A stretch of 64,000 nucleotides of DNA from Lingula anatina (Eukaryota > Animalia > Brachiopoda): assembly GCA_051362555.1 (NCBI GenBank), contig CM120643.1, forward strand, positions 15,350,644 through 15,414,643. The letters run 5' to 3'. This document shows positions 1-46,633 of the stretch, one piece after another. The position numbers and the translations under genes were made by a program. Position 1 is the stretch's first letter. Every line of letters starts with the position of its first letter. The notes below the pieces were generated by a model. That model worked only from the letters and a program-made list of their open reading frames with translations, made no database searches and had not been told where the DNA came from.

Positions 1-329
1 GTCTATGACAGGAGTGAATGTGAATTAAGCTGAGGTCCAAAGCCAGACAGTTAACAACCACCGTTGACGTTCCCAAGGCTGGTTTAATTTTTATCTGAAT
101 CAATATTTCATTGGAATCAATTAAGGGATGGTTTTTTTGATAAGTAGACTTTTTATACTCTTTTTAGACCGTGATTTTGCAGTTCGTTAATGAATTCCCA
201 CTTTGTTAATTAGCAGTTCATTTTAATCAAGGGACTTGTTATTTCAAGTAAAAGAGTGAACACAAACATTTGAATATTATTTACTTGTGCTCGGTGTCTG
301 GTTGCAGGCTTTGTGCACACCTGGTAGGG

Positions 330-336
330 TATAAAA
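330..336 (+). promoter_or_regulatory. Putative TATA box of paralog A
   Basis: GGGTATAAAAAG lies 130 bp upstream of the ATG and is conserved at the equivalent position in all three paralogs. Confidence 0.6.
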
Positions 337-459
337 AGTAGTCACGTTTGCATAAGAAAGCTGGTTCTTTTTTTTAATGTTAACAGGAATAATTAGTGCC
401 TAGCATGAACGAATAGGGATTACATTACATTTGTCCTTGTTCGAGACCTCAAATTCAAG

Positions 460-1245
460 ATGTCAGATGCAAGGAGCGACAGTAATGTCAATCATGTGAC
501 GAGAACCAACCAGTTGGAAGGTAATCCTGCCTTTCCAAATATTTTGATAAATGTTTTCTTTAGCCAGAAAAGATTTATAAAATCAGTTATTTTTATGTAC
601 GCGAGATTTTTTTCAAAGAATGATTTGGCGAACATGTGAATCATGACATAACTGATGAATACAATATAAAAGTCCAAAGGGAAGGTAACATGGAAAATAT
701 GTGGTTACCAAATTTGACGCTCCTATGGTGGTTTTAACAAACTTTAAGTTCCAACATATTTACTAATTTGTAAAAGTATGATCAACTCTTATTACATTCT
801 TGATATAAGCTTTCGTTGAACGCATCGCATTTCACTGAGATAATCTACAGCAATTTACTTCACAGGTGGTTTCTACAGTGTGCATTCTTATCCTTATTAA
901 GAGTTGTCACTTGCGAATGTCTCTTATTTGATTAAGTGCTTAAATATACTTTCTTCCAGCCAGTCGCATACTGACAGTAACCATAGTGACATGTGTTCTG
1001 GTTGCGATGATTGCGCTCATCATCTCAGCCGTCGCAATCTCCAACCCTGCTGGCTCTGACATTACAATCCAGGGTACAACGGCAAATATTCAGCAAAATC
1101 AGCCACCCAGTAGGGCCTATGACGCCATCAACCGATATCAGGCCTCAAACAATAGAAGAATTTACACGATTGCCGTTGGATACGATACTGGGCCTTATAT
1201 ATATAAGTAAGCAGAAGCATTGGCCACATGCCGTGTGCGCGGGAG

Positions 1246-1284
<39 letters not shown>

Positions 1285-4200
1285 CTGTGTGTCAGAGAGA
1301 GAGAGAGAGAGAGAGGGTAAAATCTGCATATCTGATAAATTTAACTTTCCGTATAACTTTTTAGGGACGTCAGCGGATTCCTAATTGGATTCAATCACGA
1401 CTTAATAGACGCAGGTAATCAAAATTTTCTTTTGAACAATTTGTTTCGTTGTATAACATCCATTGATAGCAATAATACTGCGAAAATATCAACTTGAAAG
1501 TTAATGGTTTATTTATTTAATTAAAAAATTTTATTCATTCCATTATTAATTTTTTAAGTGTGTCAGGAGGCGGGAATTGATTGTAGGGTTGTCAAGGAGC
1601 CTTCCACCAACTGCATGTTCTCAGAGAGAGGACAGCCACACAGAGGAGGGATAGGTATGGAGCATTCTTTTATTTATACCATAGCAGTTGGTTGTTAAAA
1701 CCTATTTCTTATATTGCTTCGTTTTATGTTTTTCTTTCTTTCAAAATCGCACTTGGAAGCAGAGTTTTTAATGACTGGGTGAACTGAAGCTGACAAACTT
1801 TAATGTCAGAAATAATCAAAGTGGTTTGGTATTCATTTTAGTTAGGTCAACTTTTATAATTATATGGCGATCGAGGTTGAATACAACTTGTTCAGTTTTA
1901 TCCTAATATGTATTGACTGAGACTGTTTTGTGCTATATTGGACTGGGGCTGAAGCTTTCCCAATATGTTTTACTTTTGTTTATAGTTGAACATGATAATG
2001 AAATTCAAGTATTTGAATATAAATTTTACCTTGAATAATCCTATACATGGCATCATTTCAGGACTTATGGAAGGTTGGTACGACGCCTGCACCGGGTGGC
2101 TGACCACACGTCAACGGAAGCAGATTTTCGCATTTTCCAAGCCGTTTTTGAAACCTATTGAGGTCTATTTCTTCGCCTTTCCTGGATTTAATCCATTCAA
2201 TATCACTGGAAAGAAAATAGGTGAGTGAGTTATCCTGTATGCACGCATTAGAAGAAATCATTCGAGTTGAAATTTCTCCAACCAGTTATTCACTTCAGCT
2301 CTTTTCCTCACGAGTACCCGCTCTTTTTCTGGTATTACTATTTAATTGTTGTTCTAAAATATACGTAGAATGTCTAAATTGATGGAATATTTTGACAAAT
2401 TAATGTATTTGCGATTCCAAAAAGGTCAAACTACATTGTAAGACAAGATACGTCATTCACCTAGGTTATTAGTATTTTATTTTGATTTCAACTACTGACT
2501 CAATTAAAATCCATTAACTCCTGAAGTTTCTTAACCGTTTTTTTTTCATTTTGGTTCCTTTTGGTGCTCAGTTGTAATGTTACATTTCATGAAGAATTCC
2601 TACACCAAGTGAGGATGTCGTGTAGCTGCCACAAACCTCTGGAATCTACATGACGTGATCTTTCTTTGATCCATATCTTAAAGAATATTGCATGCGCGAT
2701 TTCAAGTTCAAACTAGAACCAACTGTAACTTACAACCAGCTCGTTGGTATTTTAATATAATTTCATGGTCTACCCTCAAGTTACAAATTTAAATTATTTT
2801 TGGGGAATTCCCTTCCTTTTGGTACCTTTTGGTGATCAATTATGGTAAATAAACGGTAAATTACAGAGAAAAGTTTATGTTAAGAAAACCAGGAATTAGA
2901 TCAGAAGAGCGGTTATCCAAAGGCTATATGTACTATTAAGAATTTAATGACATAGTCATCTCGGGTAGGTGTCACACACGTCCTCTATTCGTGAGGTTCT
3001 GACTTAACCCGTTTCTGCAGTTTGTTGGCTCAGATGAACCCAACCCTCAAGAACGCCTGCCTCAACTCATCCCTTAAAGTTGTCTGGTCCTCTCTTGTCC
3101 TTAAAGTACGATGAAGAGCATCTCAACATGCTCCTTAAAATAGAAAGGTGTTGCCATCAGTGAGTCGTGTAATGTCGTATTCAGACTAAGTAAGATCTCT
3201 TTACATTAATGTTTACATCAAATTTGACCGCAGCACTGAACAGTTCTATTCAGATAATGAATATTTATGGGAATAGAGGATCCCCCTCTTTGACACCCCG
3301 AGTGACCCCGAGATGTCCATCCTATTCAACAACAGCAGAAACATAAGAGAAGAGGGTTTTGATACATTTTGGGTGTCTCCAATGAAATTTAAAAAATGAT
3401 ACATTGCAAAATAAATGTATTTCCACTAGACGGAATCAAAAGCCTTTTCTAAATCTAGAGGTAACAGAAGAATGTTGGTTTTGGGTGCTTTGGGACGAAA
3501 GGCAACAACTGCAGGGACAAAAAAAGAAGGAAATAAATTTTTCATCTCTAGCTGTCACCCCGATTTTGCTTCTTAAAGGCATCTGCTATTAGGAATAATG
3601 AATTTCCTAGAGTAAAAATAACTGCTGTACATATGTCCTTGGAAATGTCAAAGAGGACTTTGGCTGTCTAAATCATTTGTGGTTCTTACACACTTGCTTT
3701 ATTTTTCTGGGAGAATTGCATTTGGCGCGAAGATGCCTTGTTGGATACCATTAAATACAGTGCACGTACGCATAGGTCTGAAACAACAGCAGCGCCTTGC
3801 CTTGAATGTGGGTTTCATGTAATTAAACTACAATTGCTGTATCTTGGGTTGAAAAAGAATAAACAAAAGTCAAGGCCAATTTGCGCGTTAAAGTTCTATT
3901 GTGAAATAAACCGCTAGCTGACACCCGTTCCCTAAACGACGTCAAAAAAGTCAGAATCGGCCTCGGCATTGAAATTGGCATAGACAAAGCTGGGTCTTAA
4001 AATGCAATCGTTAACCAATAAGCTCTGTGACCAATATCCAAAATTGGACTTTGTTTCGTCGGCTATCAAAGTAAACCAGACCTATGCCTACAAACGAGTG
4101 TCTTTAAAACGGCACATGGGTGTAAACATGCATGCTGACTCCTTACAGGACTGATAAGCGGCTTCTTCAGTAACGAAGCCTGCCTAGCTGGACTGGACCA

Positions 4201-4549
4201 GGTGACTGGAAGAGACGTCCCGCACTCCAACGTTTTCCACGCCCAGACGGTTGACGAGCTATTGGCTATGATCCAGAACGGAACTGTGAGTGTTTTCCCA
4301 TGCTACCTGTTTTTGTAACTCTTTTAAATACGCCCATATGTTTTAAATCCCACCGCATCCCAGTGTTCAGACTTCACCCCTTTTCATTATTGTGAAATAA
4401 GCTTTATGACTTAACATTGGCCAGAAAAGCTACGTTAGGCTACTCGCCACTATGGTCTACTGGTTAAGCTGCATATATAAACATATCAAAAGCACGATCA
4501 AAAACAATTTCGTGAAATATTTCGTATCACTATGTAACCTTCTCAGATG

Positions 4550-4611
<62 letters not shown>

Positions 4612-5419
4612 CAGCTTTACCATCGTCATTCATTTGAGTTATTACAACCAAATACGTTTTCAAGATCATTTAATGAATTTCAGCGGTTAAATACATTGAG
4701 GCGCATCAGCTCTCGACAATTATGAACCTTTTTCAGTGATGTCGAAATTGGATATTTTCTTTACCAATCATTTAATAATTCTTAATATACAGGTAGACGT
4801 GGGTTTAAGCACGGGGCCTTCTATGGCCACCAAAATCAATGGCACTAATACCCAACGGTTCCCATCGGATCCCATGTTCTGTAAGAATGCCGGACAACCT
4901 GGAATGATGACCCGTAAAGACAATGACTTCAACTCTAAATGGAATGAAGGGTTTGAGAAACTGGTCTCTTCAGGACGTTTTAGACGGCTATGTGATGAGG
5001 CACGGATCAAGCACGGTACGTCTGGGCAGTTTTGATTAATTTCCGGTAGTATGTTATTAATAACTAGGGATCTATTACTTAATTTACAATACGTATATTG
5101 ATTATTACAAAACACTGTAAGCTAGTTAATGTAAGCAATGTCGCAAGAAACCGCCACAAGAGGTGCTGTTTTCAAGATAAGCAAAGGAAGGTTAACAACG
5201 CCCATGTTTTTTTCACAGTAAAAACTTCCCTTATAGGATATCAAGGCAAAATCATTACACTGAAAAACAAAGTTATCAAATTAAGATATCGCTTGAGGTA
5301 ATCTTTCATGTTTAAAGATTACATTCATGACACGTCACGTGATATCATCCAACGTCACATACATTGTAACGTTTGTCTCAACAGGTCATCGCGGTGAGAT
5401 TGGCTGTGTGGATGCCTAA
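460..5419 (+). CDS. Membrane-anchored solute-binding-protein family 3 (PBP type II / SBP_bac_3-like) protein, paralog A, 335 aa, 8 exons
   Basis: Exons 460-520, 960-1206, 1365-1414, 1559-1654, 2062-2220, 4149-4285, 4793-5015, 5385-5419 join in frame (1008 nt), all GT-AG. A short N-tail (MSDARSDSNVNHVTRTNQLE) precedes a hydrophobic helix (ILTVTIVTCVLVAMIALIISAVAI). Motifs then follow in SBP_bac_3 order: YTIAVGYDTGPY, DVSGFLIGFNHDLIDAVC, LMEGWYDA, TTRQRKQIFAFSKPF, ITGKKIG, DELLAMIQNGTVDVG, RKDNDFNSKWNEGFEKLVSSGRFRRL. Gene structure is high confidence; the domain call is by motif recognition. Confidence 0.85.
1248..1315. repeat. (TG)n(AG)n compound microsatellite in intron 2 of paralog A
   Basis: Seen directly. 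Related tracts occur in B (~8133-8181) and C (~13237-13295). Confidence 0.9.
4551..4608. repeat. (TA)n microsatellite
   Basis: Seen directly in intron 6 of paralog A. Confidence 0.95.
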
Positions 5420-5432
5420 CAACAGGAATCAA

Positions 5433-5650
5433 AAACTTTCACCTTGATAGCTAAAGCACAAAACAATGCACCCGTAACCTTTATCTTGATGGTTAAAACA
5501 CAGAAATTTAGGAATTGGTAACCTTCACCTTGATGGTTAAAACAAAGATATAGGCGGCCGTTACCTGAACCTGATATCTGGATCTCAGAAGATATCCTTG
5601 GCCTTCAGGTTGAAAGCTAAACCACAGGACGAGGCATCCGTAGCTTTTAT
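5433..5650 (+). repeat. Degenerate ~43-bp tandem repeat in the 3' UTR of paralog A
   Basis: The core AACCTTCACCTTGATRGYTAAA recurs about 5 times. B has about 1 copy (10771-10820) and C about 3 (16973-17070). Confidence 0.65.
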
Positions 5651-7252
5651 CAGCTTGCGGAACTTACAAGAAGCCAAGACGAAATTTATAAATGAATCTA
5701 ATGGATAGAACCGAAAATTTATTGATAATGTGTGAATTTCATGCTGATGAAAGGATTACCACCAGTGATATCAATTTCAGACCCGCAGTGTTTTTTTAAG
5801 GAAGCACAAATGTAATTCCAACAGGCTTATTACATGTAAATGCATAACTTTAGTGCTGCAGTTGATAGTTATTAGCATTTCATTACCACTACAATTAACT
5901 AATTTTATTAATTTCTTTTTTGACAAAATCAACAGTCTCATGAAAGAAATGTCGTCTTCGGAAAAGAAAAACATAACTGTTTATAATGGAAATAAGCTGA
6001 TTTATTTTTATTTTTCACATGACGCACAAGGCTCCTGGTTTGATTTAAGATACTAATTTAGCAAAGCAAAAGTAATCAGGCGGTGCCGTCCTGACTGAGG
6101 TAATGCAGTTATATGGGTTATATAAAGCCAAGGAGTTATAACAGAACTAAGATTTGTTAAAATATTTGTAGTAGGTAATTCTGAAACTTCCTGTTTGGGC
6201 ATAGATGAAAATTATAGCCTCGTTTTGGCCTACGACAAAGGCCATAGGTTAACTTACATGTATTAACAAAATTTGAAAAAATGTGATGCTTTTGTTTAAG
6301 TTGTTATACATGTATTTACATACATGAAGGCAAATTTTACGAATACGAGTGGGGGAAAGTGTATCAGGCAAATACACATTTTGAATTACTGTAGCTGGAT
6401 CCATCAATTATAAAACTCGGATTAAGTTGAGTCCGTAGCCAACGGTATGCGCCATATCTAACTAGCTGCGACCCCTTTCAGCAGAATGAAAATGGTATAG
6501 TTCAGCAGGTTCATTTGCGAAATATTTTACCTTTGTAGGAAATAAAGCTTTAAACGCAAAAACCTCGGCTTTTTATCTCATAGCCATCAAGGCGGTTTCT
6601 GTTGATTCGTGATAACTTTGCTGACTTGGACGCAAACACTGAGACAATTTAACGTATATTGCAACGCGCATAATGTTGTTGAATTTAGGGATGAAAATAA
6701 TATCTGTTTTACCTAAGCAACAGTGACAGCTTTGACCTATAAAATCCCATGAAGATTAAGTGGAGTAATAATGCTTGTAATTTACTTTTTATTTGCTTTT
6801 GGTGATTAATGCATTTCTATGGCTTTAACTTCAGTCTTCCACTGATTGAATTTGATACCACACCATGTATAAGACATTAAAAGTATTACAATATTTTCAA
6901 TACTGTGGTCTCTGACAGGAGTGAATGTAAATTAGGCTGAGATCCAAAGCCAGACAGTTAAAAACCACTGTTGACGTCCTCAAGGTTGGTTTGCTGTTTT
7001 TTTTTCTGAATCAGTATTTCATTGGAATAAATTTATTGATAATTTGTGTAATATGTAGGATTTTTCTTGCTCTGTGAGCAAACTTTTAGATCGCGATTTT
7101 GCCCACTTTGTTAATGTATTTAGGCTTTGTTAATTAACAGTTCATTTTAATCAAGGGACTTATTATTTAAAGTAAAGGTGTGAACACACACGTTTGAATA
7201 TTATTTAACTGTTCTCGGTTTTGGCTGCAGGTTTTATGCACACCTTGTAGGG

Positions 7253-7259
7253 TATAAAA
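7253..7259 (+). promoter_or_regulatory. Putative TATA box of paralog B
   Basis: GGGTATAAAAAG lies 144 bp upstream of ATG 7397 and is conserved despite divergence of the flanks. Confidence 0.6.
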
Positions 7260-7396
7260 AGTAGTCACATTTGCATAAGTAAGCTGGTTCTTTTTTTTAC
7301 TTTTTTAATGTTAACAGACACAATCCGTGCCTAGCATGAACAGATGGAGATTATATTACATTTGCCCTAGCTCGAGACATTTGTCCTAGCTCCAAG

Positions 7397-8130
7397 ATGT
7401 CGGATGCAAGGAGCGACAGCAATGTCAACCATGTGACGAAAACCAACCAACTAGAAGGTAATTTGCCTTAGAAAAGATTTGGTAAAATGTTTTCTTTAAA
7501 CAGAAAATATTTTACTTCAGCAGCGATTTTCTGTACTCGATTTCATTTATTGTAACCGAATGTCGAACATGTACAGAGGGGTGACACAAGTACAGGGGTA
7601 GTGTATTATCTATGTGAATAGGTCGCTGTGTGATTTGGAGGGACCCGTAAGTAAAAAAGTGTTTTGCGTTTTATTGTTCGTCTAACCAGTGATGGATTTT
7701 CGATCATGTGCACTGTAAAGGGTGCCATCGATGGTGTAACGCCTTCTGGCTGTCAAGTTTCTACCATGGTGAATGTACGGGAGCTCAAACATGCAGGAAG
7801 AATTTTTTTTTCGGGTTAATCCCTATATTTCTTCTCTTCCAGCCACCACGACAATAACCATAGCGATTTGTGTACTGGTTACGATAGTTGCGCTCATCAT
7901 CTCAGCCGTCGCAATCTCCAAACCCGCTGGCTCCGACATTACAGTTCAGGGTAAAACGACGAGTTCTCGACAAACTCCCCAGCCTGCAATAGCATACTCA
8001 CCCAGTACCTATGACGCCAGCCGGTGTCAGGCTTCCAATAGAAAGAGAATTTACACAGTGGCCATTGGATTCGATATTGGGGCTTATGTATATAGGTTAG
8101 CAGAAATAAGCAGAAATATAGATCAAATGA

Positions 8131-8170
<40 letters not shown>

Positions 8171-10753
8171 GGGGGGGGGGGTCAGAGCAAATGGAGGGTT
8201 TGTGTAAAATCTGCAAATCTGATGACTTTAACTGTCCGTCTAACTTTTCAGTGACGACAGCGGGTTTCAAGTTGGATTCGGTCACGACCTAATAGACTCA
8301 GGTAATCAAAAATTTCTTTGAATAATTTGTTTGGTTCTTGTTTAAATATCCTTTAATAACATTGAACACTGCATTACCACTGCAAAATATTAACTTGGAA
8401 GTCAATGGTTTATTTATTTAATTAATCATTTTTTATATATTTATTCGATTATCTATTTATTTAAGTGTGTCGGGAGGCGGGAATTGATTGCAGGATTGTC
8501 ACGGAGCCGTTCACCAACTGCATGTTCTCAGAGAAAGGGCAGCCACAAAGAGGGGGGATAGGTACAGGGCATTATTCTATTTACATCATAGCAGTTGGTT
8601 GTTAAAACGAGTTTCTTTTATTGTTTCGTTTTAGGGTTTTTTTTTTTAAAACGCGCTTAGAAGCAGAGTTTTTAAAGAGTGGGTGAAGTGAAGTTGACAA
8701 AGTTCAATGTAAGAAAATAATCAAGTGGTTTGGTAAAGCTGGCAACTAAATTATTCACTTTGGTCAGGTCGACTTTTATATGGCGACAATTTGTTCATTT
8801 TTATTCTAAAATGTATAGTTAAACTGAGACTGTTATGTGATATATTGGACTAGAGCTAAAGCTTTTCCTACATGTATGTTTTAACATTTATACGTTTTTG
8901 TTTGTAGTTTATAGTTGGGCATGATATTGACATTCAAGTATTAGAATAAATTTTACCCTGGATTTTGTCTTTACATGGCATCATTTCAGGACTTATGGAA
9001 GGTTGGTACGACGCCTGCATCGGATATCTGGCCTCACGTCAACGAAGGCAGATTTTCTCATTTTCCAAGCCGTTTCTGAAACCACTCGAGGTCTATTTCT
9101 ACGCCTTTCCTGGATTTAATCCATTCAATATTACTGGAAAGAAAGTAGGTGAGTTTTCTTGTATTCACATAGTAGGTAAGATAATTCACGTTTCATCATG
9201 AGTACCAGGTCTTGTTTTGGTATTACTGTTTTTAAAACTGCGAGTCTTTTAAAAGCGGTCCATTGGTATTAATATGCGTGCTGCCTCCTTACAGGACTGA
9301 TTAGCGGGTTCTTCACTAACGAAGCTTGTATAGCCGGACTGGACCAGGTAGCTGGAAGAGACGTCCCGCACGCCAACGTTTTCCATGCCCAAACACCTGC
9401 CGAGCTCTTGGCTATGATCCAGAACGGAACAGTGAGTGTATTTTCTATGTTACCAGTTTTTGTAATAATTCTTTTTAACACGCCAATATGTTTGAAATCC
9501 CACAGCATCCCAGTGTTCAGACTTCATCTCTTTTAATTATTGTGAAATGAGCTTTATAATTAGACATTGGCCAGAAAAGGTGAGGCTGCCCTTTTATCAG
9601 TGGCAGATTTGGAAGGGGGGGGGGGGGGGGGGGGGTGCACCGGGGGGGGGGGGTCCTGACCCTCCTTCCATTTCTGAAAATCCAACTGCCCTCTCTTGAA
9701 ATTAGAATTTTGACTTACTGAATCTTAGTTCTAAATAGTACCAAATAGGACCCTTCGCCCTCTAAAATACCAATTTTTTATCGGGGCCCTTCAGCGGATC
9801 CGCCCCTGTTTTGTGGTACATTCGTAAAGCTGAAATTTGGCATCTGCATATATATAAACATATCAAAAGCAGAATATTTTGTATCACTAATTATCCCTCT
9901 CAGTCTTAACTGTTTATACAGATGGCCTATTTCAGCTTTACTATCGTCAATCATTTGAGTTTACTGCATCCAAATGCGTTTTCAAGGTCATTTAGTGAAT
10001 TTCAGCGGTTAAATACATTGAGGAGTGTCACCTCTCGACAATTATGAACCTTTTGTAGTGATGTCGAAATATTGGACGTTTTCTTCACTGATCATTTAAT
10101 ACTCCCCAAATCTTACAGGTAGATGTGGGTTTTGCGGCCGCAGTAGATGTGATCAACGTAATCTCTGACACTAATGTTCGACAGTTCCCCTCGGGTCCCT
10201 TCTTCTGTAAGAATTACGGACAGCCCGGAATGATGACCCGTAAAGACAACGACTTCAACTCTAAATGGAATGAAGGGTTTGAGAAACTGGTCTCTTCAGG
10301 ACGTTTTAAACGGCTATGTGATGAGGCACGGATCAAGCACGGTACGTCTGGGCAGTTTTGATTACTTACCGGAAGTATGCTGTAAATTACTAAGGATATA
10401 TTACTTAATTTACATTACGTATATTGATTATTACAAATATACACTGTAAGCTAGGTAATGTAAGCAATGTCGCAAGAAACTGCCACAAGAGGTGCTGTTT
10501 TCAAGATAAGCAAAGGAAGGTTAACAACGCCATTCTTTTTTTTTTTGCACAGTCAAAGCTTCCCTTATAGGGTATCAAGACAAAACCATTACATTGAAAA
10601 ATAAAGTTATCAAATTAAGATATCGCTTGTGGTAATGTTTTTATGTATAAATATTACATTCATGATCGATACGTGATTTCATTCAACGTCACATACATTG
10701 TAACGTTTGTCTCAACAGGTCATCGCGGTGAGATTGACTGTGTTGATGCCTAA
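7397..10753 (+). CDS. Membrane-anchored SBP family 3-like protein, paralog B, 337 aa, 8 exons
   Basis: Exons 7397-7457, 7843-8095, 8252-8301, 8466-8561, 8990-9148, 9295-9431, 10119-10341, 10719-10753 (1014 nt). Exon sizes and phases match paralog A except a 6-nt longer exon 2. The frame is intact. Confidence 0.85.
9598..9808. mobile_element. Short TIR element (MITE, hAT-like termini) in intron 6 of paralog B
   Basis: Termini CAGTGGCAGATTT ... GGATCCGCCCCTG are imperfect inverted repeats with a poly-G tract inside. It is absent from the homologous intron of A. The TSD is not clean. Confidence 0.65.
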
Positions 10754-12315
10754 CAACAGCTGGGATCTGTAACCTTCACCTTGATAGCTAAACCACAGGA
10801 CGAGGCACCCGTAACTTTTATGGCAACTTGTGGAACTTACAAGAGGCCACGGCAAAATTTTTAAATGAATCTAATGGATAGAACCGAAAATTTATTGATG
10901 ACGATGATGATGATGATGGAAGGATGACCACCAATAATACCAGACCCGCAGTGTTTTTTAAGGAAGCACAACTGTAATTCCAACAGGCTTATTACATGTA
11001 TATGCATAACTTCAGCGCTGCAGTTAATAGTCATCATCATTTCATTACCATTACAATTGACTAATTTTATTAACTTCTTTTTTTGAAAAAATCAACAGTC
11101 TCATGAAAGAAATGTCGTCTTCAGAAAAGAAAAACAGAACTTTTTATAATCGAAATAAGCTAGCTGTTTTATTTTTTATTTTTCATGTGACGCACGAGGC
11201 TCCTGGTTTAATTTAAGAGACTACTTTAGCAAAGGAAAAACGACCAAGCGGTGCCGTGCTGACTGCGGTAATGCAGTTATATGGGTTATATAAAGCTAAG
11301 AACTAAGTTTTGTTAAAATATTTGAAACAGGTAATTCTGAAACTTTTTGTTTGGGCATAGATGAAAATTATAGCCTCGTTTTGGCCTACGACAAAGACCA
11401 TAGGTTAACTTACATGTATTAACAAAATTTGAAAAAGGTGATGCTTGTGTTTAAGAATTTTACGAATACGAGTGGGGGAAAGTGTATCAGGCAAATACAC
11501 ATTTTGAATTACTACAGCTGGATCCATCACATTATAAAATTCGGATTAAGTTGAGTCCGTAGCCAACGGTATGCTCCATATATAACTAGCTGCGACCCCA
11601 TTCAGCAGAATGAAAATGGTATAGTTCAGCAGGTTCATATTTGCGAAATATTTTACTTTTTCAAAAATCATGTAGAAAATTAAGTTTTACACGCAAAAAC
11701 CTCAGCTTTTCAACTCACGCGGTTTCTTTTGGTTCGTGATAACTTTGCTGACTTAGACAAGCACTGAGACGTGTATTGGAACATGTACAGTATAACGTGG
11801 TTGAATTTAGGAATGGAAAGAATACCTGTTTTACCTTAGCAACCGTGATAGCTTTGACCTATAAAATCCCATGAAGATTAAGAGGAGTAAGAATGCTTGT
11901 AATTTACTTTTTATTCGCTTTTGCTGATTAATGCATTTCTATGGCTTTAACTTCAGTCTTAAGGGTACTTATACAGTGATGTTCATAAGTGAAGAAACAT
12001 TTGCTTTTCAATTTTCTTTTTAAAAAATCAAACCTTTATTCAGAGGGAAATCTGCACAGACGTTTTCCACTGATTGAATATAATACCACACCATGTACAA
12101 AACATTAAAAATGTTACAATATTTTCAAAGTAGACTTTTTATACTCTTTTTAGACCGTGATTTTGCAGTTCGTTAATGAATTCCCACTTTGTTAATTAGC
12201 AGTTCATTTTAATCAAGGGACTTGTTATTTCAAGTAAAAGAGTGAACACAAACATTTGAATATTATTTATTTGTGCTCGGTGTCTGGTTGCAGGCTTTGT
12301 GCTCACCTGGTAGGG

Positions 12316-12322
12316 TATAAAA
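12316..12322 (+). promoter_or_regulatory. Putative TATA box of paralog C
   Basis: GGGTATAAAAAG lies 131 bp upstream of ATG 12447. Confidence 0.6.
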
Positions 12323-12446
12323 AGTAGTCACGTTAACATAAGAAGGCTGGATCTTTTTTTTTTATGTTAACAGGAATAATTAGTGCCTAGCATGAACGAA
12401 TAGGGATTACATTACATTTGTCCTTGTTCGAGACCTCAAATTCAAG

Positions 12447-15400
12447 ATGTCAGATGCAAGGAGCGACAGTAATGTTAATCATGTGACGAGAACCAACCAG
12501 TTGGAAGGTAATGCTGCCTTTCCAAATATTTTGATAAATGTTTTCTTTAGCCAGAAAAGATTTATAAAATCAGTTATTTTTATGTACGCGAGATTTTTTT
12601 CAAAGAATGATTTGGCGAACATGTGAAACATGACATAACTGATGAATACAATATAAAAGTCCAAAGGGAAGGTAACATGGAAAATATGTGGTTACCAAAT
12701 TTGACGCTCCTATGATGGTTTTAACAAACCTTAAGTTCTAACATATTTGCTAATTTGTAAAAGTATGAGCAACTCTTATTACATTCTTGATATAAGCTTT
12801 CGTTGAACGCATCGCATTTCACTGAGATAATCTACAGCAATTTACTTCACAGGTGGTTTCTACAGTGTGCATTCTTATCCTTATTAAGAGTTGTCACTTG
12901 TGAATGTCTCTTATTTGATTTAGTGCTTAAATATACTTTCTTCCAGCCAGTCGCGTACTGATAGTAACCATAGCGACATGTGTTCTGGTTGCGATAGTTG
13001 CGCTCATCATCTCAGCCGTCGCAATCTCCAACCCTGCTGGTTCTGACATTACAGTCCAGGGTACAACGGCAAATATTCAGCAAAATCAGCCTCCCAGTAG
13101 GGCCTATGACGCCATCAACCGATATCAGGCCTCAAACAAAAGGAGAATTTACACGATTGCCGTTGGATACGATACTGGGCCTTATGTATATAAGTAAGCA
13201 GAATCATTGGCCACATGCCGTGTGCGGCGCGAGCGCGTGTGTGCGTGTGTGTCTGTGTGTCAGAGAGAGAGAGAGAGATTGGGGGGGGGGGGGGGTAAAT
13301 CTGCATATCTGATAAATTTAACTTTCCGTATAACTTTTCAGGGACGTCAGCGGATTCCCAATTGGATTCATTCACGACTTACTAGACGCAGGTAATCTAA
13401 ATTTCCTTTTGAACATTTTGTTTGGTTCGTTTTCTGTTCGTGTTTGAAAACAATAACAATGCTAAAATATCAACTTTGAAATACTGTCTCATTTATTCAT
13501 TTATTCTTTATTGAGTCTGCCTGGAGGCGGATATGGATTGTAGGACGGTCACGGACCAATCCACCAATTGTATGATCTCGGAGAGAGGGCAGCCGATGCG
13601 CGGGGGCAAAGGTATGGAGATTCAGATTCTGTTTTGTTTATATCATATTATTTGTTTCTCCTTTTGATTGTATTTCTTCAATGTTTTGAATAACTGGGTA
13701 AGTTTAATGTGAGGCAATAATAAAATAATTAAAGTGAATCATGAAAGTGTTTTGGTTAAGCTGACAGCAAACCTACTCACATTGGCGAATGCGGTTCTTC
13801 TAAGATAATTCTGACGATTTTTTAAAAGTTTTATTCTAAAATGTATAGTTTGCCTGAAACTGTTACACGCTATATTACACGCTATACTGATCTAGGAGTG
13901 ATGTTTCTCCTATATGTTTAACTTTTGTTTATAGTTGTTTACAGTTAATGTTGAACATGATATTGAAATTCAACTATTGGAGTATAAATTTTACCCTGAA
14001 TTTTGTCTATACGTGGCATCATTTCAGGACTTATGGAAGGTTGGTACGACGCCTGCACCGGATGGCTGGCCACACGTCAACGGAAGCAGATTTTCGAATT
14101 TTCGAAGTCGTTTCTGAAACCTCTTGAGCCCCATTTCTACGCCTTTCCTGGATTTAATCCATTCAATATCACTGGGAAGAAAATGGGTGAGTTATCCTGT
14201 ATTCTGATTTTGGAAAAGATATTTTGAATTATGATTTCTCTAAGCCCATATCTGACTCTTACAGACCATTGTTCTTAATAACGATAAGTTCCCTCAGTTA
14301 AAAATGCCTGAAGTCTCTATTTCCTTAAAAATGCGAGAGAGACTATGTATAGCCGTCAAAATCAATCATGATTCTTTTTGAACCAAGTTATTTATTGAGA
14401 AATAAGACAAAACGTCGAATCCTAGATGCTGATTCGTTTCTTTGGGAAATGCTTTTTTTCTCTCTAGGAAAATTAGATTTGCTGCGTTGTTCCCGCAAAT
14501 GATACTACAAAAGATAAAGTACGCATAATTGGTCTGTACTGTAACAGAAGCAGTCTTAATTGTTACAAAACGAGCGAGATATGTTATACTACTGAGGTTT
14601 TTGGTTATCAGAAGGCTTAATCTTTTGACTTGAAGCTTAGACAAATGTCCGAACTACAGTTCTATTGTGAAACAGGCCAATGGCACTTAGCTGTCTCATT
14701 AAACGAAGAAAGTCAAAATAAGACTAAGCATAGATATTCATAGTCGACAAAGCAGATTTGTACAAAGGCAATCGTTTGTAAATCGCTCTTTTCGCAATAT
14801 CGCGAAGTCGACTTCACTTCACACGCTGTCAAAGTTAAGCAGGCTAGGAAGACCTACAAACTTGAAACTCATGACAGCAACCCTCTGTTTATTCACATGT
14901 AAATACACACTTACTCTTTACAGGACTGGTAAGCGGGGGTTTCACTAACGAAGCCTGCCTAGCTGGACTAGACCAAGTGGCTGGAAGAGACGTCCCGCAC
15001 TCCAACATTTTCCATGCACACACGCCTGACGACCTCGTGGCTATGATCCTGAACCGCACTGTAAGAGACCATTCCCACAGATATATGGATCGATCTATCT
15101 CCCTGGGGAGTCTCACTCAATTGCTGTCAACTTGACCGGCTTAAATGTCTGTCACGCCTAGTAAAGCTGTTAGGGAGTAACTATCTTTACCTCCTAGGTG
15201 ATTCGGTAGGCGTGACAGACAACTAAGCCGGTTATTTGATAGCAATTTAGGGAGACTCCCCAGGGAGTTAGGTCGATCCAGATGGATCTATCTAAGTATT
15301 GGAACCCAAGCTAAGTGTTTTACCTACGTTCTCAGTTTTGTGCCGTTCTTTGACATATACGCCAAAAGGGTCATATAATATATATATATGACCCTTTGCC

Positions 15401-16955
15401 AAAACGTGACTAGACATACAAGGGCCTCTTTCTGTACCCTCGTCTCTTAACCTTTCATAATACAGAACAAGCTTCTTAATCGAGTTTTTGCACGATTTCT
15501 CTCAACTTATCTGCTATTTTTTACTCATTATCATGAACTAAGTTTGGATCCGTTATTTTGTACCAAAATGAGTGAAAAAAGTAGATTTATATATCAGAAA
15601 TTGGCGGAAAATACGCACTAAAGGGCGTTACACGCTATGCCCAGTGTTACTGTCGCATCTCAAGTGCAACAGCAACCTGTTCCTTGGTGGAATTGTCAAC
15701 ATGGTATATTCCAAAAGTACTGTATATAAGTAACGTATGGAAAGAATAACAAAAACCCATAGTCTGGCGTACTTAATTACACCCACTGTGTTGCAGCCCA
15801 TCTTTATTTAAAAGTGTAACATCTGTTATATCCTAAAATCAGAGCATCACCTTTGTCAGCCATTTGCAAAACTTGCAATATGTGAAAGAAGTCTTTCAAC
15901 CAGTAACAATCAGGCAGTTTATTTTTGATGTCTGACATTTGGTATTTTTAAAGGGACGTTTTGGTTAAGGGCCATATATGTATGGAATCGGTCCAATATG
16001 TGTGCCTGTGTGTGTGAAATAGGCCAAAAAAAAAAAGGTCTTACAAGTCGTATTATTCCATCTTGTATTTCAAAATTTCAAGACTGAGAAGTCATATTAT
16101 CAATGCCAAAAAATTCCTTGAAATTTATTTTGATCGTACTTTCAATATTTTTATACAAATTTAAAAGCCCAATTCCGACTTTACCATCGTCATTCATTGT
16201 GTCCAAATGCGTCTCCAAGACCATTTAGAGAACTTCAGTGGTTTGATACATTAAGGCTTACATGTTCAAGCTCTCGGTGGTACAAACCTTCTTGAATGCT
16301 ATCAAATTTCAGTGTTTTCTGCCCCAATCATTTTACGCTCCCCAAACATTACAGGTAGACGTGGGGTTTATCATGAGGTCTGTGATGGATATCAAAATAT
16401 CTGGCACTAATATCCAACGGTATCCAGAGTACCCCCTCTTCTGTAAGAATGCCGGAGCATCAGCGATGATGACCCGTAAGGATAATGACTTCAACACTAA
16501 GTGGAATGAAGGGTTTGAGAAGCTTGTTTCTTCGGGGCGTTTCAAACGCTTATGTGAAAAGGCAGAAACTGAGCACGGTACGTCTGAGTAATTCTGTTCT
16601 CAAATTAATGCCAGTATAGACTGATAACACAGCATGTATTAAAATGCTATTTCTCTTTCTACTTTACTCTCTACAATACATGTGATGACCAAAAGCGGAA
16701 GATACAGGCAATGTCGCCACGGTCAGCCAGCTGATTTTATAACTAACAAAGAACTGTAAACAACGTTCTTGTTTCATTGTCCACAGTCAATGCAGCCCTT
16801 ACATAATAGTATAGTATTTACATTTCACATCGTTTTTGTCCATGAAACAGAAAGTTATAAACTTTCAGTAGTGCTAGATCGAAAACCCCATTTAACGCCA
16901 CATAACTTTTGTCTCAACAGGTCACCGCGGTGAAATTAATTGCGCGGATGCCTAA
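12447..16955 (+). CDS. Membrane-anchored SBP family 3-like protein, paralog C, 335 aa, 8 exons
   Basis: Exons 12447-12507, 12947-13193, 13342-13391, 13516-13611, 14028-14186, 14924-15060, 16355-16577, 16921-16955 (1008 nt). The frame is intact. The exon 4 acceptor is an uncommon GAG. Confidence 0.83.
15065..15311. mobile_element. Palindromic MITE with TAA duplication (Tourist/PIF-Harbinger-like) at the exon 6 donor of paralog C
   Basis: Inverted arms of ~75 bp at 15086-15160 and 15207-15280. TAA flanks at 15062-15064 and 15312-15314, after which sequence homologous to the A/B intron resumes. Confidence 0.7.
15389..15974. mobile_element. Non-autonomous TIR element in a TA tract, intron 6 of paralog C
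   Basis: Ends TGACCCTTTGCCAAAACGT and ACGTTTTTGGTTAAGGGCCA are imperfect inverted repeats flanked by TA runs. It is absent from A and B. Confidence 0.5.
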
Positions 16956-18093
16956 ACAACAACATACAGCGTCACCTTCGCCTTGATGGCTAAATCACGG
17001 AAGGGGCATCCGAAACCTTCACCTTGATGGTTCGATCATAAAAAGGGTCATCATTATCCTTCACCATGATGTCGCATTATGAAATGTATATTTGTTAAGA
17101 AGGAATTTATAAGCATAAATAACTTTTTGATGGTACATGTATCGAACATTCAACAAACATTAATATACATATTCCACGTTAATGCAGAAGACCAAAATTG
17201 GCAGATTTAAGGGCCCTCTATTATTCACCTCACTAAAACTGAAAAGGAATCTTGGAGCTATGCCCGTTTCCATGGTTACATGATCATTAGCTATGCCCTA
17301 ACCATGGCATGTAAACTATACATAAGAATCATTTTTTCGGTAAATCCATGATTTTACATCTCCTTTTTTTTTTTAATTCATACGACGCAAGACAATATAT
17401 ATCAGTGAAGTAGTTGTGTAGTGTAAAAAGCACCATTTATCATTTTATTCTTCATTTTTAAATTCAACAAGGCAGATGCGTATCAGAAAAAGATTTACGC
17501 TTGGCATTTTATTCAGTCTGTTTACATTAAACGCATTTCAAATGAAGTAGTAACAATATCATAGCCTTTTGTGTTAATATTTTCCAAAAACGTATTAGGA
17601 ACCCAGAAATTTCATGGGGTGAGCTCGTAACCCAGAATTACCGTATGGGGAATATTTCTAGAAGCACTTACCACATGAACCATTTTACATAAGAGGTTAT
17701 AACTATCCAAAGGACAGATTGGACAGATCCGTAAGAAAAGAAAAGTTTGACCCTCTGAGGCATTGCCCTGTATCATAAGAAAAAATATGAAAAATGGTTA
17801 AAATGGTTAAATGTTAAAAAGCATTAGTGAGGACCGCTCTTGGTAAAAAAACCTGAAAATTTTTTTTTTGGATTTGAAAGGGATTAGTAAAAGATAAGTA
17901 GCTTTGCAGCATATTTACACATAAAACTATTACTTTGAGGTTTGTCAAACACTTTAAGTATATCTTTTGAAGTTAATTAATTATATTTGAAATCCTACTC
18001 TTAAAACCGACCTCTTCTCTCATTGTGGGACAATGCATCGTTCAACAACGAAGCGTAACGTCGCGTAATCGGTACGTCATTTGAATAGTAATG

Positions 18094-18101
18094 TGACGTC
18101 A
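18094..18101. promoter_or_regulatory. Palindromic CRE-like site (TGACGTCA) upstream of the orphan membrane-protein gene
   Basis: A full TGACGTCA plus nearby half sites (ACGTCA at 18074, TGACG at 18111) in a CpG-rich patch ~75 bp before ATG 18173. Confidence 0.45.
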
Positions 18102-18172
18102 TAAGTAATGTGACGACGACGCTTCCGTAGTTACAAAGTCAACATGGAAATGCGAAGATATATGTTTCCATT

Positions 18173-21100
18173 ATGTCGATTTTACGGTTATTGATATTAT
18201 TAATTCTCAGTTTTGCTTGTGTATTTATATTACACTTTCTCCAGAATAATGACAGGTACGTACAAATTCAATGTATAGACCGTCTTCTTAAGTTTAAGCA
18301 ACAAAAGCAAACGGTGTAAATTTTCACGCTCGTAGACTGTCTTCACTTGCTCAGCACAAATTCTGAAAACTCTTCTTATAGACGTTTTTTTGTGTTTTTT
18401 CAAAATATTTCGTTGGAAATTCTTGTTCATAAGTAGATACCCAATTGTTTCTAATGTGTACATTAATGTTTATTATTCCATTATACTTACTCATAGGAAC
18501 ATCGAAGATCAAAACCTGGAGATTTACATTAACATATCGGTTCGAGCTACTGGGGACAGCAGTCCAGAAGAATTCGTAAGTCATAAGATACATCTTACAG
18601 AATTCGGACCGAGGGAGGGCCACCCATGGTTTACAAGAACAACAACGAGAAGGAGGAGCGGCGCCAGTAGACATCTCTTCAGCACTGACTTAAATGAAGA
18701 AATCGCTGGAAATGAACCACCTCCAACGAACCATGATGAAACAACCAAGACAGGAAACAAAACTAGTACTGGTGAGAGTCCCTTTTTTATTGAATTCGGC
18801 TTCAGACATGTTTGAATGAAGTTGATGTAGATTGAATTACAGTAAATAAATAAATAAATAAATAAATAAATAGCTTAGAGAAAAATGCCCAATCAGTGGT
18901 ACATTGTATCAAACTTCCTGGTACTTTATCAAGCGAATGATCAAAGGAAAACTGTAAGGAAACAAGCTCTTGGTTAGAAATAAAGCGGGTTTGTGTTCGA
19001 TTAGTACAAATGTCCATACTTTTTAAATGGATAGCTTATCTTTAAAAAAAAGAGTAGATTTCAAAGCACGCTTTAACGTGCAGAATCATAATGATGAGTG
19101 TGGCAACAGAGTTTTGATTGGACCGTGCCGCATATCAAAATTAACGCCGCCTTTATCCATCATTCTTTTGATTCATTAAAATGTCAAATATTTTTCAGAC
19201 CGTGGGTGGAATGCCTCTTACTTCAAGTCTGTAGCTTTCTCAGCCTATCAGGACGCTGTTCAAAGCATCGCCGACGTTAAAGACAAGAGTCACAGTCACT
19301 TTGTTTTTTGGCAACACAGCCTTTATGCTCTTCTTAATAACTACTGCGACAAAGTTCAGGCAACATCAGCAGCAATAGGTGAGACAGTTGTGCCATATAT
19401 GGATATCCTTAGCTACTACTATGTCAAACTGGTTAATTATCTTCTTCTTTCTGGCATTTTGAAAACGTGTTCAGTTGTTGAATAATGTCCATTTAGTGTC
19501 TTACATGTGTCTGCCATTAGATAGCATGCGATTTTGATGCATGCTCTATGTAAATGAATTTGATTGAACATTATACATCTCACTTTTTTTCATTTCAGTG
19601 CATGACATTGTAGAGGCCATTGAAGGCAGCAAGAAGTCTGCAGAAGAAGTCTTCAGGTCATTCAAGGACGGGCTTGTAGCACACATTGATAATGGCATCG
19701 CTCGAGTGCGCCTCTACTTCGTTCCTGAGTCTCCCGTGGAACGAAAGTGTAAAGGACATTCCAACTGGTACGCAAAGAGCGCCTGTACACTCTTGTTCCA
19801 TGCTGCTGAATACCCTCCACAACTTGTCTCCACTCTGGCTGAAGGATACGACAGAATTTTTGAAATCACCAGAAGGCTCTTCGTGGGTGAGACGCACAAA
19901 GATAAGGTCTGCAAAGGCTACGACACCGTGCCGTTCCTTCGGAAAGTCTGTGAGACAGGATTTGATGTGGCGTCAAAGACAAACGAAATCCTAGAGAACG
20001 CCCAAGAGTTCCTCAGTAAATGTATTGCACAGCCAGCCTTGGACTTTACCCGGAAGGTCATCACATCTATAACAGACTGTGTATGGAAAGTTAAGGAGGG
20101 GTTTGCAAGAGCCTGTCACAATGGGATGAACCTGGGAAATAAAATTACAACTTACCTGTATCAGGGCTTGGACGTCGAAGCGGCTAAAGGTAGATACAAC
20201 ATACAAATTGAAATCACCCTGGTCCCATGCAATTCCCGTTTAAAATATCACCTTTTGAAGCACATCTACATTGCCAGAAATGTTTTCAATTTAACATGTT
20301 ACAACACTTAATTATCTTCATTTCAAATATTGTTATTATAACAATAACGTTATTAGGCACAGATAGAAATCAAAACATTGCCCTCTTCTTTTTTCAGCAC
20401 TTCTGTATTCTGTGTTGAAGAAGGTTGCGTACAAAGTCCATGACGTCTACGTACGTCTTCCCCGCTTCAATGGTGATCCCATACATGATGGGCTGGTGGT
20501 TGTAGCCTGGGTGGTGTGTGCCCTAGCCCAGGGGTTGGTGGTCTACTGGGCCAGGAGGAAGATCAGTCTAGGTACAATATCCAATGTTTAGGCTACTGTA
20601 GTAGCCCATGATGTATTCACACACGATTGATGACTATTCCGCGCTATTTGTATTGGTTTTTAAAAGCTTTTATATTGACTATTAATGCCGTATACACTGT
20701 TTGATAATCATAAAGCTATTTAGCCACAAATTAAAAGGTTAACTGGCATATTTTAACTGTACGTTTTGCAGCATTTATAAAGTATGTTGTCTTTCTAGAT
20801 AACAACGTAAGAAAGGCCCGTCAAATGCGACTTCGTTTCTCCCATCCCACCTCATCAGAAGATTACTATGACAGGATTACGAGACTCGTTAGGGAGCAGG
20901 AGAAAGATGCAGAAAGCGGAGGTGCAGAATTACCCGATGAAACCGAGAGCTTTCAAAATGTAAATGTCACCCCTGCTGTTACTGACAACGATGACAAGGA
21001 CGGGGCCAACCCAGTCGATGACCTAGGCAACGATTCCGGCGTGTGGGCAGACATGTCTTTAGGACGGATCGAGGAGGAGGAGGAGGAGGCGGCACCAACG

Positions 21101-21994
21101 GTATCAGCGCCCTCTTTGGCCCAAGAAGAACCAAAAGAAGTGAAAGAGGCGCAGTTTCACCTACCTCCAGAACCAGAGGCTAACGCACAACTGCTAGACC
21201 TGAAAGATGAATCCGCCCTGGAGAGCGAAGTGGTGCAGCCTGACGACACACATGATGAAGAACAAAACACTTCAGTAACAACTTATGGAGAGGAGCTAGA
21301 AAGCTCCACAGATGCAGCAAAGTACAGCGAAGGAGAGACGCAAAAGTTAGCTTCCTCTGCAGTTATCCATGACCCACAGGGCGAACCCGTACCAGATGCC
21401 GCATCTCAGATGGATATGAACAACAATGAAACAGAAAATGACGGCAGTGAACACCTCATTGAGGTAAGTTTTACGTTGTATTAGCTCGAATATATATAAC
21501 TTTAAAAAGTTTCATTTTAGCTCGTCATTTCCTCATATAAAACGTTGATTGTTGATTATTACTGAAGAAGATAAAACACAATCTGCCTTTTACTGAAACA
21601 TATATTTAATAGGTAATTTGTTTTATAAATGTTCTTTAGGCTTCACTTATTTTTCTGCCCCTAGCTATAATTAGTAATTAAGGTATGGAGAAGGCCCTAC
21701 TCCCAATTTTTTTTTTTTTGAAAAAAAAAAAAAAAAAGAACCGGAAACTAATTCTAAATAAAATTGTTTTAGGAAATCAAGGAGTCCCTGCCGTCCAATG
21801 TCTCTGATGTCAACACGGATGAGACACGCGGAAAGACAGTCATCTCCGAGACATTAAACCAAACTGACAGACGTGACCTCCCGACTCCTCAGCCGACCGA
21901 GGCCAACCGCGGGGGCGGCGGTTGGTGGTCCAGAATCGGCCATGCCGCTTGGGTTGTGTTCAGATACATTTTAGAGCATCCAGAGCTTTTCTAA
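18173..21994 (+). CDS. Uncharacterised membrane protein, 729 aa, 7 exons (signal/anchor, Cys-containing helical region, TM helix, acidic disordered tail)
   Basis: Exons 18173-18255, 18497-18771, 19199-19378, 19599-20189, 20398-20571, 20799-21463, 21773-21994 join in frame (2190 nt), all GT-AG. The N-terminus is MSILRLLILLILSFACVFILHFLQ and the TM helix is GLVVVAWVVCALAQGLVVYWARRK. No family was recognised. Confidence 0.75.

Positions 21995-22654: not shown

Positions 22655-22705
<51 letters not shown>

Positions 22706-32215: not shown

Positions 32216-32248
<33 letters not shown>

Positions 32249-46567: not shown

Positions 46568-46633
<66 letters not shown>

What the first reader, a model, noticed from the sequence alone, without database searches (positions are those of the whole stretch)
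460..16955. Tandem family of intron-containing, membrane-tethered 'bacterial' solute-binding proteins: a candidate stand-alone small-molecule sensing or capture system in an animal
Seen: three intact 8-exon genes, each with a TATA box. Each encodes a ~20-aa N-tail, one hydrophobic helix, a short stalk and a single ~250-aa domain with 8 conserved Cys. Established: the motif order (P-Y/F loop; GF.hDL..A; L..G..D; T..R...F.FS.P; GKKIG; ..G.VD; N..h..h...G.h..L) is that of family-3 amino-acid solute-binding proteins (HisJ/GlnH/ArtJ). In bacteria these feed ABC importers. In animals the fold is best known as the split S1/S2 domain of iGluRs/IRs. Here the domain is contiguous, with no pore, no ABC permease in the window and almost no cytoplasmic tail. 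Inference: a domesticated gene, possibly from ancient horizontal transfer, became a type II cell-surface binder. It could serve chemosensation, dissolved-nutrient scavenging or microbial metabolite sensing through an unknown partner. Similar automatically annotated proteins may exist in other marine invertebrates; I know of no characterised function.
Basis: partly seen in the sequence, partly recalled or inferred. Interest (0 to 1): 0.9.

Follow-up and report, generated by a model that had tools for sequence, protein, structure and literature searches.

The report
Animal stand-alone solute-binding protein array
Three intact, spliced genes of a lamp shell encode likely membrane-anchored versions of the clam-shell protein that bacteria use to grab nutrients; they belong to an undescribed family spread across marine invertebrates and likely capture small organic acids rather than free amino acids.

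Summary
Observation confirmed: three intact 8-exon genes (335, 337, 335 aa), all GT-AG, dN/dS 0.33-0.45. Near-identical database proteins are labelled Lingula anatina. They pass Pfam SBP_bac_3 and fold as a contiguous two-lobed binding domain, closest to LAO/GlnH/NocT, with no pore. The family is not Lingula-specific: named relatives come from annelid, mollusc, priapulid, echinoderms, hemichordates, amphioxus, a protist and a few bacteria. About half are anchored and half look secreted. First, the carboxylate-binding Arg is kept, but both residues that lock the alpha-amine in LAO are gone, as in the opine binder NocT, which cannot bind free amino acids. Second, transfer from bacteria predates the bilaterian ancestor, and its direction is unresolved. 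Pocket positions vary more than the rest among nine Lingula paralogs (13 of 17 vs 104 of 229; permutation p 0.003). Best reading: a diversifying set of surface ligand-capture proteins that cannot signal alone. Ligand and partner are untested. No paper describing the family was found; this scan noted similar genes before in Owenia and Naegleria.

The parts
330..336 (+). TATA box of gene 1
   Evidence: TATAAAA 130 nt upstream of the ATG; the same motif in the same place before all three genes
460..5419 (+). Gene 1 CDS, 8 exons: 460-520, 960-1206, 1365-1414, 1559-1654, 2062-2220, 4149-4285, 4793-5015, 5385-5419; 335 aa
   Evidence: 93% identical to P0005; no RNA laid on this copy
142..1446 (+). 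5' block of gene 1 (promoter to exon 3, introns included), 94.8% identical to gene 3's 12128-13423; likely recent conversion or unequal crossover
   Evidence: the rest of gene 1 aligns to gene 2 at 84-89% including introns and 3' flank
7253..7259 (+). TATA box of gene 2
7397..10753 (+). Gene 2 CDS, 8 exons: 7397-7457, 7843-8095, 8252-8301, 8466-8561, 8990-9148, 9295-9431, 10119-10341, 10719-10753; 337 aa
   Evidence: spliced reads at introns 3, 4, 6 and 7
10754..12040 (+). Likely 3' UTR of gene 2 (about 1.3 kb)
   Evidence: stranded reads of run X4 cover 10705-12040 at depth up to about 6; the end was not mapped
12316..12322 (+). TATA box of gene 3
12447..16955 (+). Gene 3 CDS, 8 exons: 12447-12507, 12947-13193, 13342-13391, 13516-13611, 14028-14186, 14924-15060, 16355-16577, 16921-16955; 335 aa
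   Evidence: 98% identical to P0006; intron 3 joined by 4 reads, low depth
960..1050 (+). Hydrophobic anchor of gene 1 (predicted helix, residues 25-47), followed by a stalk of about 36 aa
   Evidence: helix H25-47 in the model of P0005
2062..2220 (+). Exon 5: carries the invariant carboxylate-binding Arg170 and Leu165, which replaces LAO Ser72
   Evidence: alignment to NocT numbering and HisJ
4793..4830 (+). Start of exon 7: hypervariable patch 256-263, including position 257 (LAO Asp161 equivalent; Thr/Ala/Met)
   Evidence: pN/pS 1.06 in the patch vs 0.39 in the rest

Best explanation
These are three expressed-type, intact tandem genes for a two-lobed solute-binding domain, predicted to sit outside the cell on a single membrane anchor and likely to trap small carboxylate-bearing molecules that are not free alpha-amino acids, each copy likely tuned to a different ligand. 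Shown: gene structure, splicing (genes 2 and 3), fold class, conserved Arg170, loss of the alpha-amine lock, excess variation at pocket positions. Inferred: the domain closes on a ligand whose carboxylate pairs with Arg170. The hydrophobic and aromatic pocket fits N-substituted or amine-free acids (opines, betaines, N-acyl amino acids, short organic acids). With a tail of about 22 aa and no pore, the protein cannot signal or transport alone. It would concentrate and hand the ligand to a separate receptor or carrier at an epithelial surface, much as odorant-binding proteins or tethered Gram-positive binding proteins do (analogy recalled). Secreted relatives would do the same job in fluid or mucus.
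For: PF00497 is above its cut-off in 8 of 9 Lingula database proteins. The model of P0005 has mean pLDDT 87. Top structural matches are GlnBP/LAO/NocT (Foldseek E about 1e-16 to 1e-15; VIA Z 23.9, rmsd 2.8, 223 aligned). Arg at 170 in 156 of 168 family domains; Ser/Thr at 165 together with Asp/Glu at 257 in only 3 of 168, against 6 of 17 canonical bacterial rows. NocT lacks the same two side chains and does not bind Arg, His or Orn (PMC4192606, passages); LAO D161A falls from 1 nM to 42 uM (bioRxiv 2023.03.18.532921, passages). Aromatic residues stand at 135, 164 and 210 in 110, 138 and 131 of 168. With the 17 published NocT contact positions, 13 of 17 vary among 9 Lingula paralogs against 104 of 229 other positions (permutation p 0.003). 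The family holds 52 anchored and 56 signal-like single-domain proteins among 149 (crude hydropathy rule). The bacterial Cys-rich relatives also lie apart from ABC genes (0 of 20 neighbouring frames scanned had an ABC domain).
Against: No ligand, location, tissue or partner was tested. The pocket map rests on sequence alignment at about 20% identity, not on superposed coordinates. For the three window genes alone the excess is weak (9 of 17 vs 74 of 229, p about 0.07-0.10). Pocket pN/pS is 0.8, not above 1, so relaxed constraint explains it as well as diversifying selection. The paralogs are related by conversion and are not independent. Flanking charges do not clearly fix type II topology, and an Ala-X-Ala site follows the helix, so cleavage is possible. 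The backbone carbonyl of Gly163 and aromatic residues could still hold a free amine.
Confidence: 0.5

Rival explanations
1. Ordinary amino-acid scavenger: the tethered domain binds free dissolved amino acids and feeds an epithelial solute carrier.
For: The closest structures bind amino acids. Arg170 and Gly163 are kept. Databases label some relatives arginine-binding; these are automatic names.
Against: Both alpha-amine-locking side chains are missing, which in NocT goes with no detectable binding of free amino acids. The Asp11/Glu36 equivalent is Gly. No carrier domain was seen in the window, though eukaryotic partners need not be linked.
Confidence: 0.13
2. Ecto-enzyme or luminal enzyme built on the binding-protein fold, like cyclohexadienyl dehydratase; short tail, anchor and stalk is also the layout of ecto- and Golgi enzymes (recalled).
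For: An enzyme evolved from this very fold (bioRxiv 157495, passages). The genes are stand-alone in animals and in the bacterial relatives.
Against: No conserved acid or base lines the pocket: Asp/Glu at 257 in 17 of 168, and position 260 reads Ser/Asp/Val in the three genes. Only the Arg and glycines are fixed among the mapped contacts.
Confidence: 0.12
3. Ligand-binding subunit of a signalling receptor: it assembles with a separate channel, GPCR or kinase and transmits closure through the stalk or anchor.
For: The same fold forms the iGluR ligand core (VIA Z 16-19, GluR0 21.7). One unnamed relative (P0199, unverified model) puts eight such domains before membrane segments, a WWE domain and an ADP-ribosyltransferase domain. 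Paralog diversification resembles receptor repertoires.
Against: The stalk is low-confidence and likely flexible (pLDDT about 50). Half the family looks secreted. None of 32 relatives scanned, mostly the longer ones, had a channel or GPCR domain.
Confidence: 0.13
4. Sponge or buffer: it sequesters endogenous metabolites, transmitters or dietary toxins without passing them on, like molluscan acetylcholine-binding protein or saxiphilin (both recalled).
For: Secreted and tandem multi-domain forms (2-8 copies) would raise capacity.
Against: Read depth was low in 8 of 8 runs sampled (tissues unknown, 6-30% of each run read). The anchor limits capacity.
Confidence: 0.12

Closest known systems
LAO/ArgT, HisJ, ArtJ, GlnH (family-3, cluster F solute-binding proteins)
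   Same: Fold, Pfam family, carboxylate-binding Arg77 = Arg170, and the Cys38-Cys45 pair = Cys121/Cys128
   Different: No Ser72/Asp161/Asp11 equivalents; six extra conserved Cys and an insertion of about 11 aa after the Phe52 position; spliced animal gene with an anchor; no ABC operon
NocT, nopaline-binding protein of Agrobacterium
   Same: Keeps the Arg and lacks both alpha-amine-locking side chains; among the best sequence and structure hits
   Different: NocT has Gly at the Ser72 site and Glu36 for the guanidinium; here these are Leu and Gly, so the ligand is unlikely to be nopaline. NocT sits in an ABC operon
iGluR / IR / GluR0 ligand-binding cores
   Same: Same two-lobed fold (Z 16-22)
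   Different: Contiguous domain, no pore, stop right after the domain; PF10613 far below cut-off (12 vs 30 bits); no iGluR among the 60 listed of 70 PDB sequence hits
Acetylcholine-binding protein, odorant-binding proteins, transferrin/saxiphilin (all recalled, not tested)
   Same: Stand-alone, disulfide-stabilised extracellular ligand binders in animals; transferrins are also of a periplasmic-binding-type fold
   Different: Unrelated or only distantly related folds; no sequence match was sought or seen
Cyclohexadienyl dehydratase
   Same: Stand-alone use of the same fold
   Different: Its general acid has no conserved counterpart here (position equivalence inferred)

Membership tests
SBP_bac_3 / PBP-II cluster F fold | Profile match above curated cut-off | tested here: met
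   8 of 9 full-length Lingula database proteins, e.g. P0005 52.4 vs 26.4 bits; the truncated P0002 misses. Of 15 single window exons only one gave a weak hit (E 0.037).
SBP_bac_3 / PBP-II cluster F fold | Contiguous two-lobed alpha/beta fold | tested here: met
   AF2 pLDDT 87; VIA Z 23.9 over residues 87-334; modelled on P0005, 93% identical to gene 1
Polar amino-acid ABC binding proteins (LAO/HisJ/GlnH) | Arg that binds the alpha-carboxylate | tested here: met
   Arg170 in 3 of 3 genes and 156 of 168 domains
Polar amino-acid ABC binding proteins (LAO/HisJ/GlnH) | Ser72 and Asp161 side chains locking the alpha-amine | tested here: not met
   Leu165 and Thr/Ala/Met257; both kept in 3 of 168 family domains
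Polar amino-acid ABC binding proteins (LAO/HisJ/GlnH) | Works with a cognate ABC permease and ATPase | tested here: inconclusive
   No transporter domain in 148 of 148 frames of 62 aa or more beyond 17 kb; short exons are missed and no whole genome is held
Polar amino-acid ABC binding proteins (LAO/HisJ/GlnH) | Measured ligand binding | not testable with these tools
   needs purified protein
iGluR / IR | S1 and S2 split by pore-forming membrane segments | tested here: not met
   no hydrophobic segment after residue 60, stop at the end of exon 8; exon 7-8 joint and 3' UTR reads, no onward joint within 8200-13200
Cyclohexadienyl dehydratase-like enzymes | Conserved general acid in the cleft | tested here: not met
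   positions 257 and 260 are variable and mostly non-acidic; equivalence inferred by alignment
Type II membrane protein | Uncleaved N-terminal anchor, C-terminus outside | tested here: inconclusive
   a 23-residue predicted helix, 2-3 N-glycosylation sequons and 8 Cys after it; flanking charges ambiguous

The most novel reading that the evidence does not exclude
An unrecognised class of animal chemosensory or metabolite-capture proteins, as old as the bilaterian ancestor: disulfide-locked bacterial-type binding domains, tethered or secreted, expanded lineage by lineage into repertoires that read marine organic acids, betaines and opines, and presenting them to receptors. It would be a marine counterpart of odorant-binding proteins, overlooked because the usual model animals may lack it.
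Probability: 0.3. Interest if true: 0.85.

Novelty: new variant of a known kind. Interest (0 to 1): 0.62.

Why it matters
In animals this fold is known mainly as the split ligand core of glutamate-type receptors (established knowledge). A stand-alone, spliced, multi-phylum family with a remodelled pocket would add a class of extracellular small-molecule binders to marine invertebrate biology. It makes a long-standing question directly testable: how such animals capture or sense dissolved organic compounds. The domains should be easy to express and screen, the paralogs give a natural specificity series, and the fold is already used as a biosensor scaffold (an iGluSnFR structure is among the hits).

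Tried and rejected
Whole genome: none held, so copy number and partners could not be surveyed. Bacterial contamination: rejected (introns, spliced reads, eukaryotic neighbours). Pseudogenes: rejected (open frames, dN/dS 0.33-0.45). Fragment of an iGluR or GPCR gene: rejected. Recent Lingula-specific transfer: rejected. Positive selection on the pocket: not shown (pN/pS 0.8). My first pocket tests were weaker or post hoc: nine LAO residues gave p 0.15 for three genes and p 0.018 for nine paralogs, and the 14-position set was chosen after seeing the alignment. Disulfide pairing by co-loss fits 121-128, 138-161 and 216-280, but is confounded by one clade. A 168-row IQ-TREE run and the careful 44-row run did not finish; quick trees are quoted and no AU test was run. 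The look-up of sequencing runs listed no indexed RNA holder. The ESM Atlas gave only bacterial SBP clusters for the P0005 domain; a second query did not complete. A homodimer prediction was never run, so no verdict. Literature: nine novelty searches (listings only) showed no paper on the family. Term searches of the hemichordate genome supplements and of the Lingula genome text and supplement gave nothing relevant. Subscription journals and bioRxiv supplements are not covered. A paper on insect IRs was not held.
Full report
Observation. I rebuilt the genes from the sequence. Three + strand models (460-5419, 7397-10753, 12447-16955) each have 8 exons, GT..AG at 21 of 21 introns, the same phases, no internal stop and a TATAAAA 130-144 nt upstream. 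The products are 335, 337 and 335 aa, 71-80% identical, with dN/dS 0.33-0.45. Each has one N-terminal hydrophobic segment, a stalk of 36-38 aa, 2-3 N-glycosylation sequons and 8 shared Cys in the domain. Gene 1 is a mosaic: 142-1446 is 94.8% identical to gene 3 including introns, while the rest follows gene 2 at 84-89%.

Expression. On 8200-13200, four RNA runs gave 42-264 reads each. Joints fall at predicted introns 3, 4 and 7 of gene 2 (3, 3 and 4 of 4 runs), with 4 reads at intron 6; stranded runs give the + strand, and one run covers about 1.3 kb of likely 3' UTR. No joint leads from exon 8 to another exon in that stretch. Most reads are only 90-95% alike, so they show that the family is spliced more than that this exact copy is. 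On 13310-19400, gene 3 has low depth and 4 reads across intron 3 in 1 of 4 runs; most reads there belong to a repeat.

Identity. An exon-5 profile found nine proteins at 75-98%, all labelled Lingula anatina, uncharacterised. P0005 is 93% identical to gene 1 and P0006 98% to gene 3; P0005 stood in for gene 1 in all outside tools. PF00497 passes its cut-off in 8 of 9; PF10613 scores 12 bits against 30. The model built on 120 sequences has mean pLDDT 87, a helix at 25-47, a low-confidence stalk and a well-defined domain. Foldseek ranks GlnBP, LAO and NocT first. The wide search gives LAO Z 23.9 (rmsd 2.8, 223 aligned), GluR0 21.7 and eukaryotic iGluR cores 16-19. Scanning 148 of 148 frames of 62 aa or more beyond 17 kb found CTNNBL1 exons and a CCCH finger, but no transporter, channel or GPCR domain.

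Family. P0005 hits 298 representatives at E 0.001 and 139 at 1e-10 (best 150 listed). From 178 proteins then held I kept 165 domains of 149 proteins that span most of the profile, plus the three window genes (168 rows). The eight Cys (83-97%), Arg170, Gly111, Gly150, Gly152, Asp159 and Gly284 are near-invariant. Names were available for only part of the set: Lingula, Owenia, Haliotis, Priapulus, sea urchins, a brittle star, three hemichordates, amphioxus, a marine protist transcriptome and Acidobacteriota bins. No cnidarian, sponge, vertebrate, insect or nematode name appeared, but absence was not tested. By a crude hydropathy rule 52 of 149 are anchored, 56 are single-domain and signal-like, 10 are tandem, and a few have a C-terminal hydrophobic tail (some anchors are miscalled). 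None of 32 relatives, mostly the longer ones, carried a channel or GPCR domain. One unnamed 3750-aa model has a receptor-like layout.

Origin. Quick IQ-TREE runs (65 rows LG+G4; 44 rows mixture model with 21 rows left out, long branches and near relatives) separate the Cys-rich group from canonical bacterial proteins (SH-aLRT 99). Named animals fall on one branch (96). The window genes group with other Lingula proteins and an amphioxus protein (90-91). Cys-rich bacterial members form a shallow clade (97-99) next to two unlabelled sequences, apart from the protist group. They are rare: 3 real loci in a scan of GTDB contigs and 3 of 401 genomes in one phylum sample. None of 20 neighbouring frames scanned has an ABC domain, whereas all five annotated canonical plasmid regions show ABC permease genes beside the binding protein. 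Cys121/Cys128 align with the NocT cysteines and the LAO Cys38-Cys45 pair. Inference: the domain descends from a LAO/HisJ/NocT-like bacterial protein and was in animals by the bilaterian ancestor. Whether it came through unicellular eukaryotes, and which way it moved between bacteria and eukaryotes, is open. There is no bootstrap or AU test, and the outgroup sample is thin.

Pocket. I mapped contacts through HisJ and through NocT, whose 17 binding-site residues are listed in PMC4192606 (passages) and matched the fetched sequence at 17 of 17. Arg102/Arg77 is Arg170, and Ala95/Ser70 is Gly163. Gly97/Ser72 is Leu165, Ser207/Asp161 is Thr, Ala or Met257, and Glu36/Asp11 is Gly94. The two alpha-amine-locking side chains occur together in 3 of 168 family domains and in 6 of 17 canonical rows. 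The NocT paper attributes its failure to bind Arg, His and Orn to the loss of these two residues; D161A costs LAO four orders of magnitude (bioRxiv 2023.03.18.532921, passages; PMC4917951, passages). Family-wide the cleft is rich in aromatics. Among nine Lingula paralogs (two near-alleles dropped), 13 of 17 contact positions vary against 104 of 229 others (permutation p 0.003). For the three window genes it is 9 of 17 against 74 of 229 (p 0.07-0.10). Pocket pN/pS is 0.8, the 256-263 patch 1.06 and the rest 0.39. This fits divergent specificities but also relaxed constraint.

Mechanism. I commit to extracellular ligand capture (0.5): closure on a carboxylate-bearing, N-substituted or amine-free small molecule, with paralog-specific preference and hand-over to a separate receptor or carrier. 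Fold, splicing and pocket changes are shown. Topology, ligand class, hand-over and tissue are inferred. The rivals are free amino-acid scavenging (0.13), receptor subunit (0.13), enzyme (0.12; precedent in bioRxiv 157495, passages) and buffer (0.12).

Novelty. The fold is known and databases label some members automatically. Nine searches of the held library (listings only) and term searches of two genome papers (supplements, and main text for Lingula) showed no description of the family; PMC5924519 (passages) gave only background on EhuB. Subscription literature and bioRxiv supplements were not seen. This scan noted similar genes before in Owenia and Naegleria (unchecked notes). The Owenia note calls its family worm-specific, but Owenia proteins fall inside the multi-phylum family here; I did not check that they are the same gene. 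Verdict: a real, ancient, uncharacterised variant of a known binding-protein kind; interest 0.62.

Noticed in passing
window 15060-15310: Palindromic element (15083-15283, 78% self-complementary) in intron 6 of gene 3 that draws reads from many loci on both strands; likely a MITE
   Followed up: partly
window 1-122: Matches the stretch upstream of gene 2 (6908-7033, 86%), so the array may continue before the window; the database holds five or more close paralogs on one 94.9-kb scaffold
   Followed up: no
window 29286-34346, - strand: Seven exon-bearing frames of a CTNNBL1 gene
   Followed up: partly
window 37645-61172, + strand: Long acidic exon, a CCCH finger at 40092-40289 and a basic C-terminal exon resembling ZC3H18 (name recalled)
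   Followed up: no
window 40373-53860: About 6-kb internal duplication with 161-nt and 336-nt tandem repeats, 86-98% identical; a 364-nt inverted pair at 46627-46990 and 49295-49658, 99.7%
   Followed up: no
window 19180-23293, + strand: Several long open frames with no Pfam match at E 0.01, directly downstream of the array
   Followed up: partly
P0199 (3750 aa, unnamed assembly): Eight Cys-rich binding domains, TSP1 and EGF, then hydrophobic segments, WWE and ADP-ribosyltransferase domains: a receptor-like layout; gene model unverified
   Followed up: partly
L001 6001-6864, L002 1-1574, L003 5860-6882, L009 568-2253: Rare bacterial genes with the same Cys-rich domain and no ABC gene among scanned neighbours; 3 of 401 genomes in one phylum sample; tight clade; direction of transfer open
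   Followed up: partly
P0213 (Owenia): Family domain fused behind antistasin, pacifastin and VWC modules
   Followed up: no
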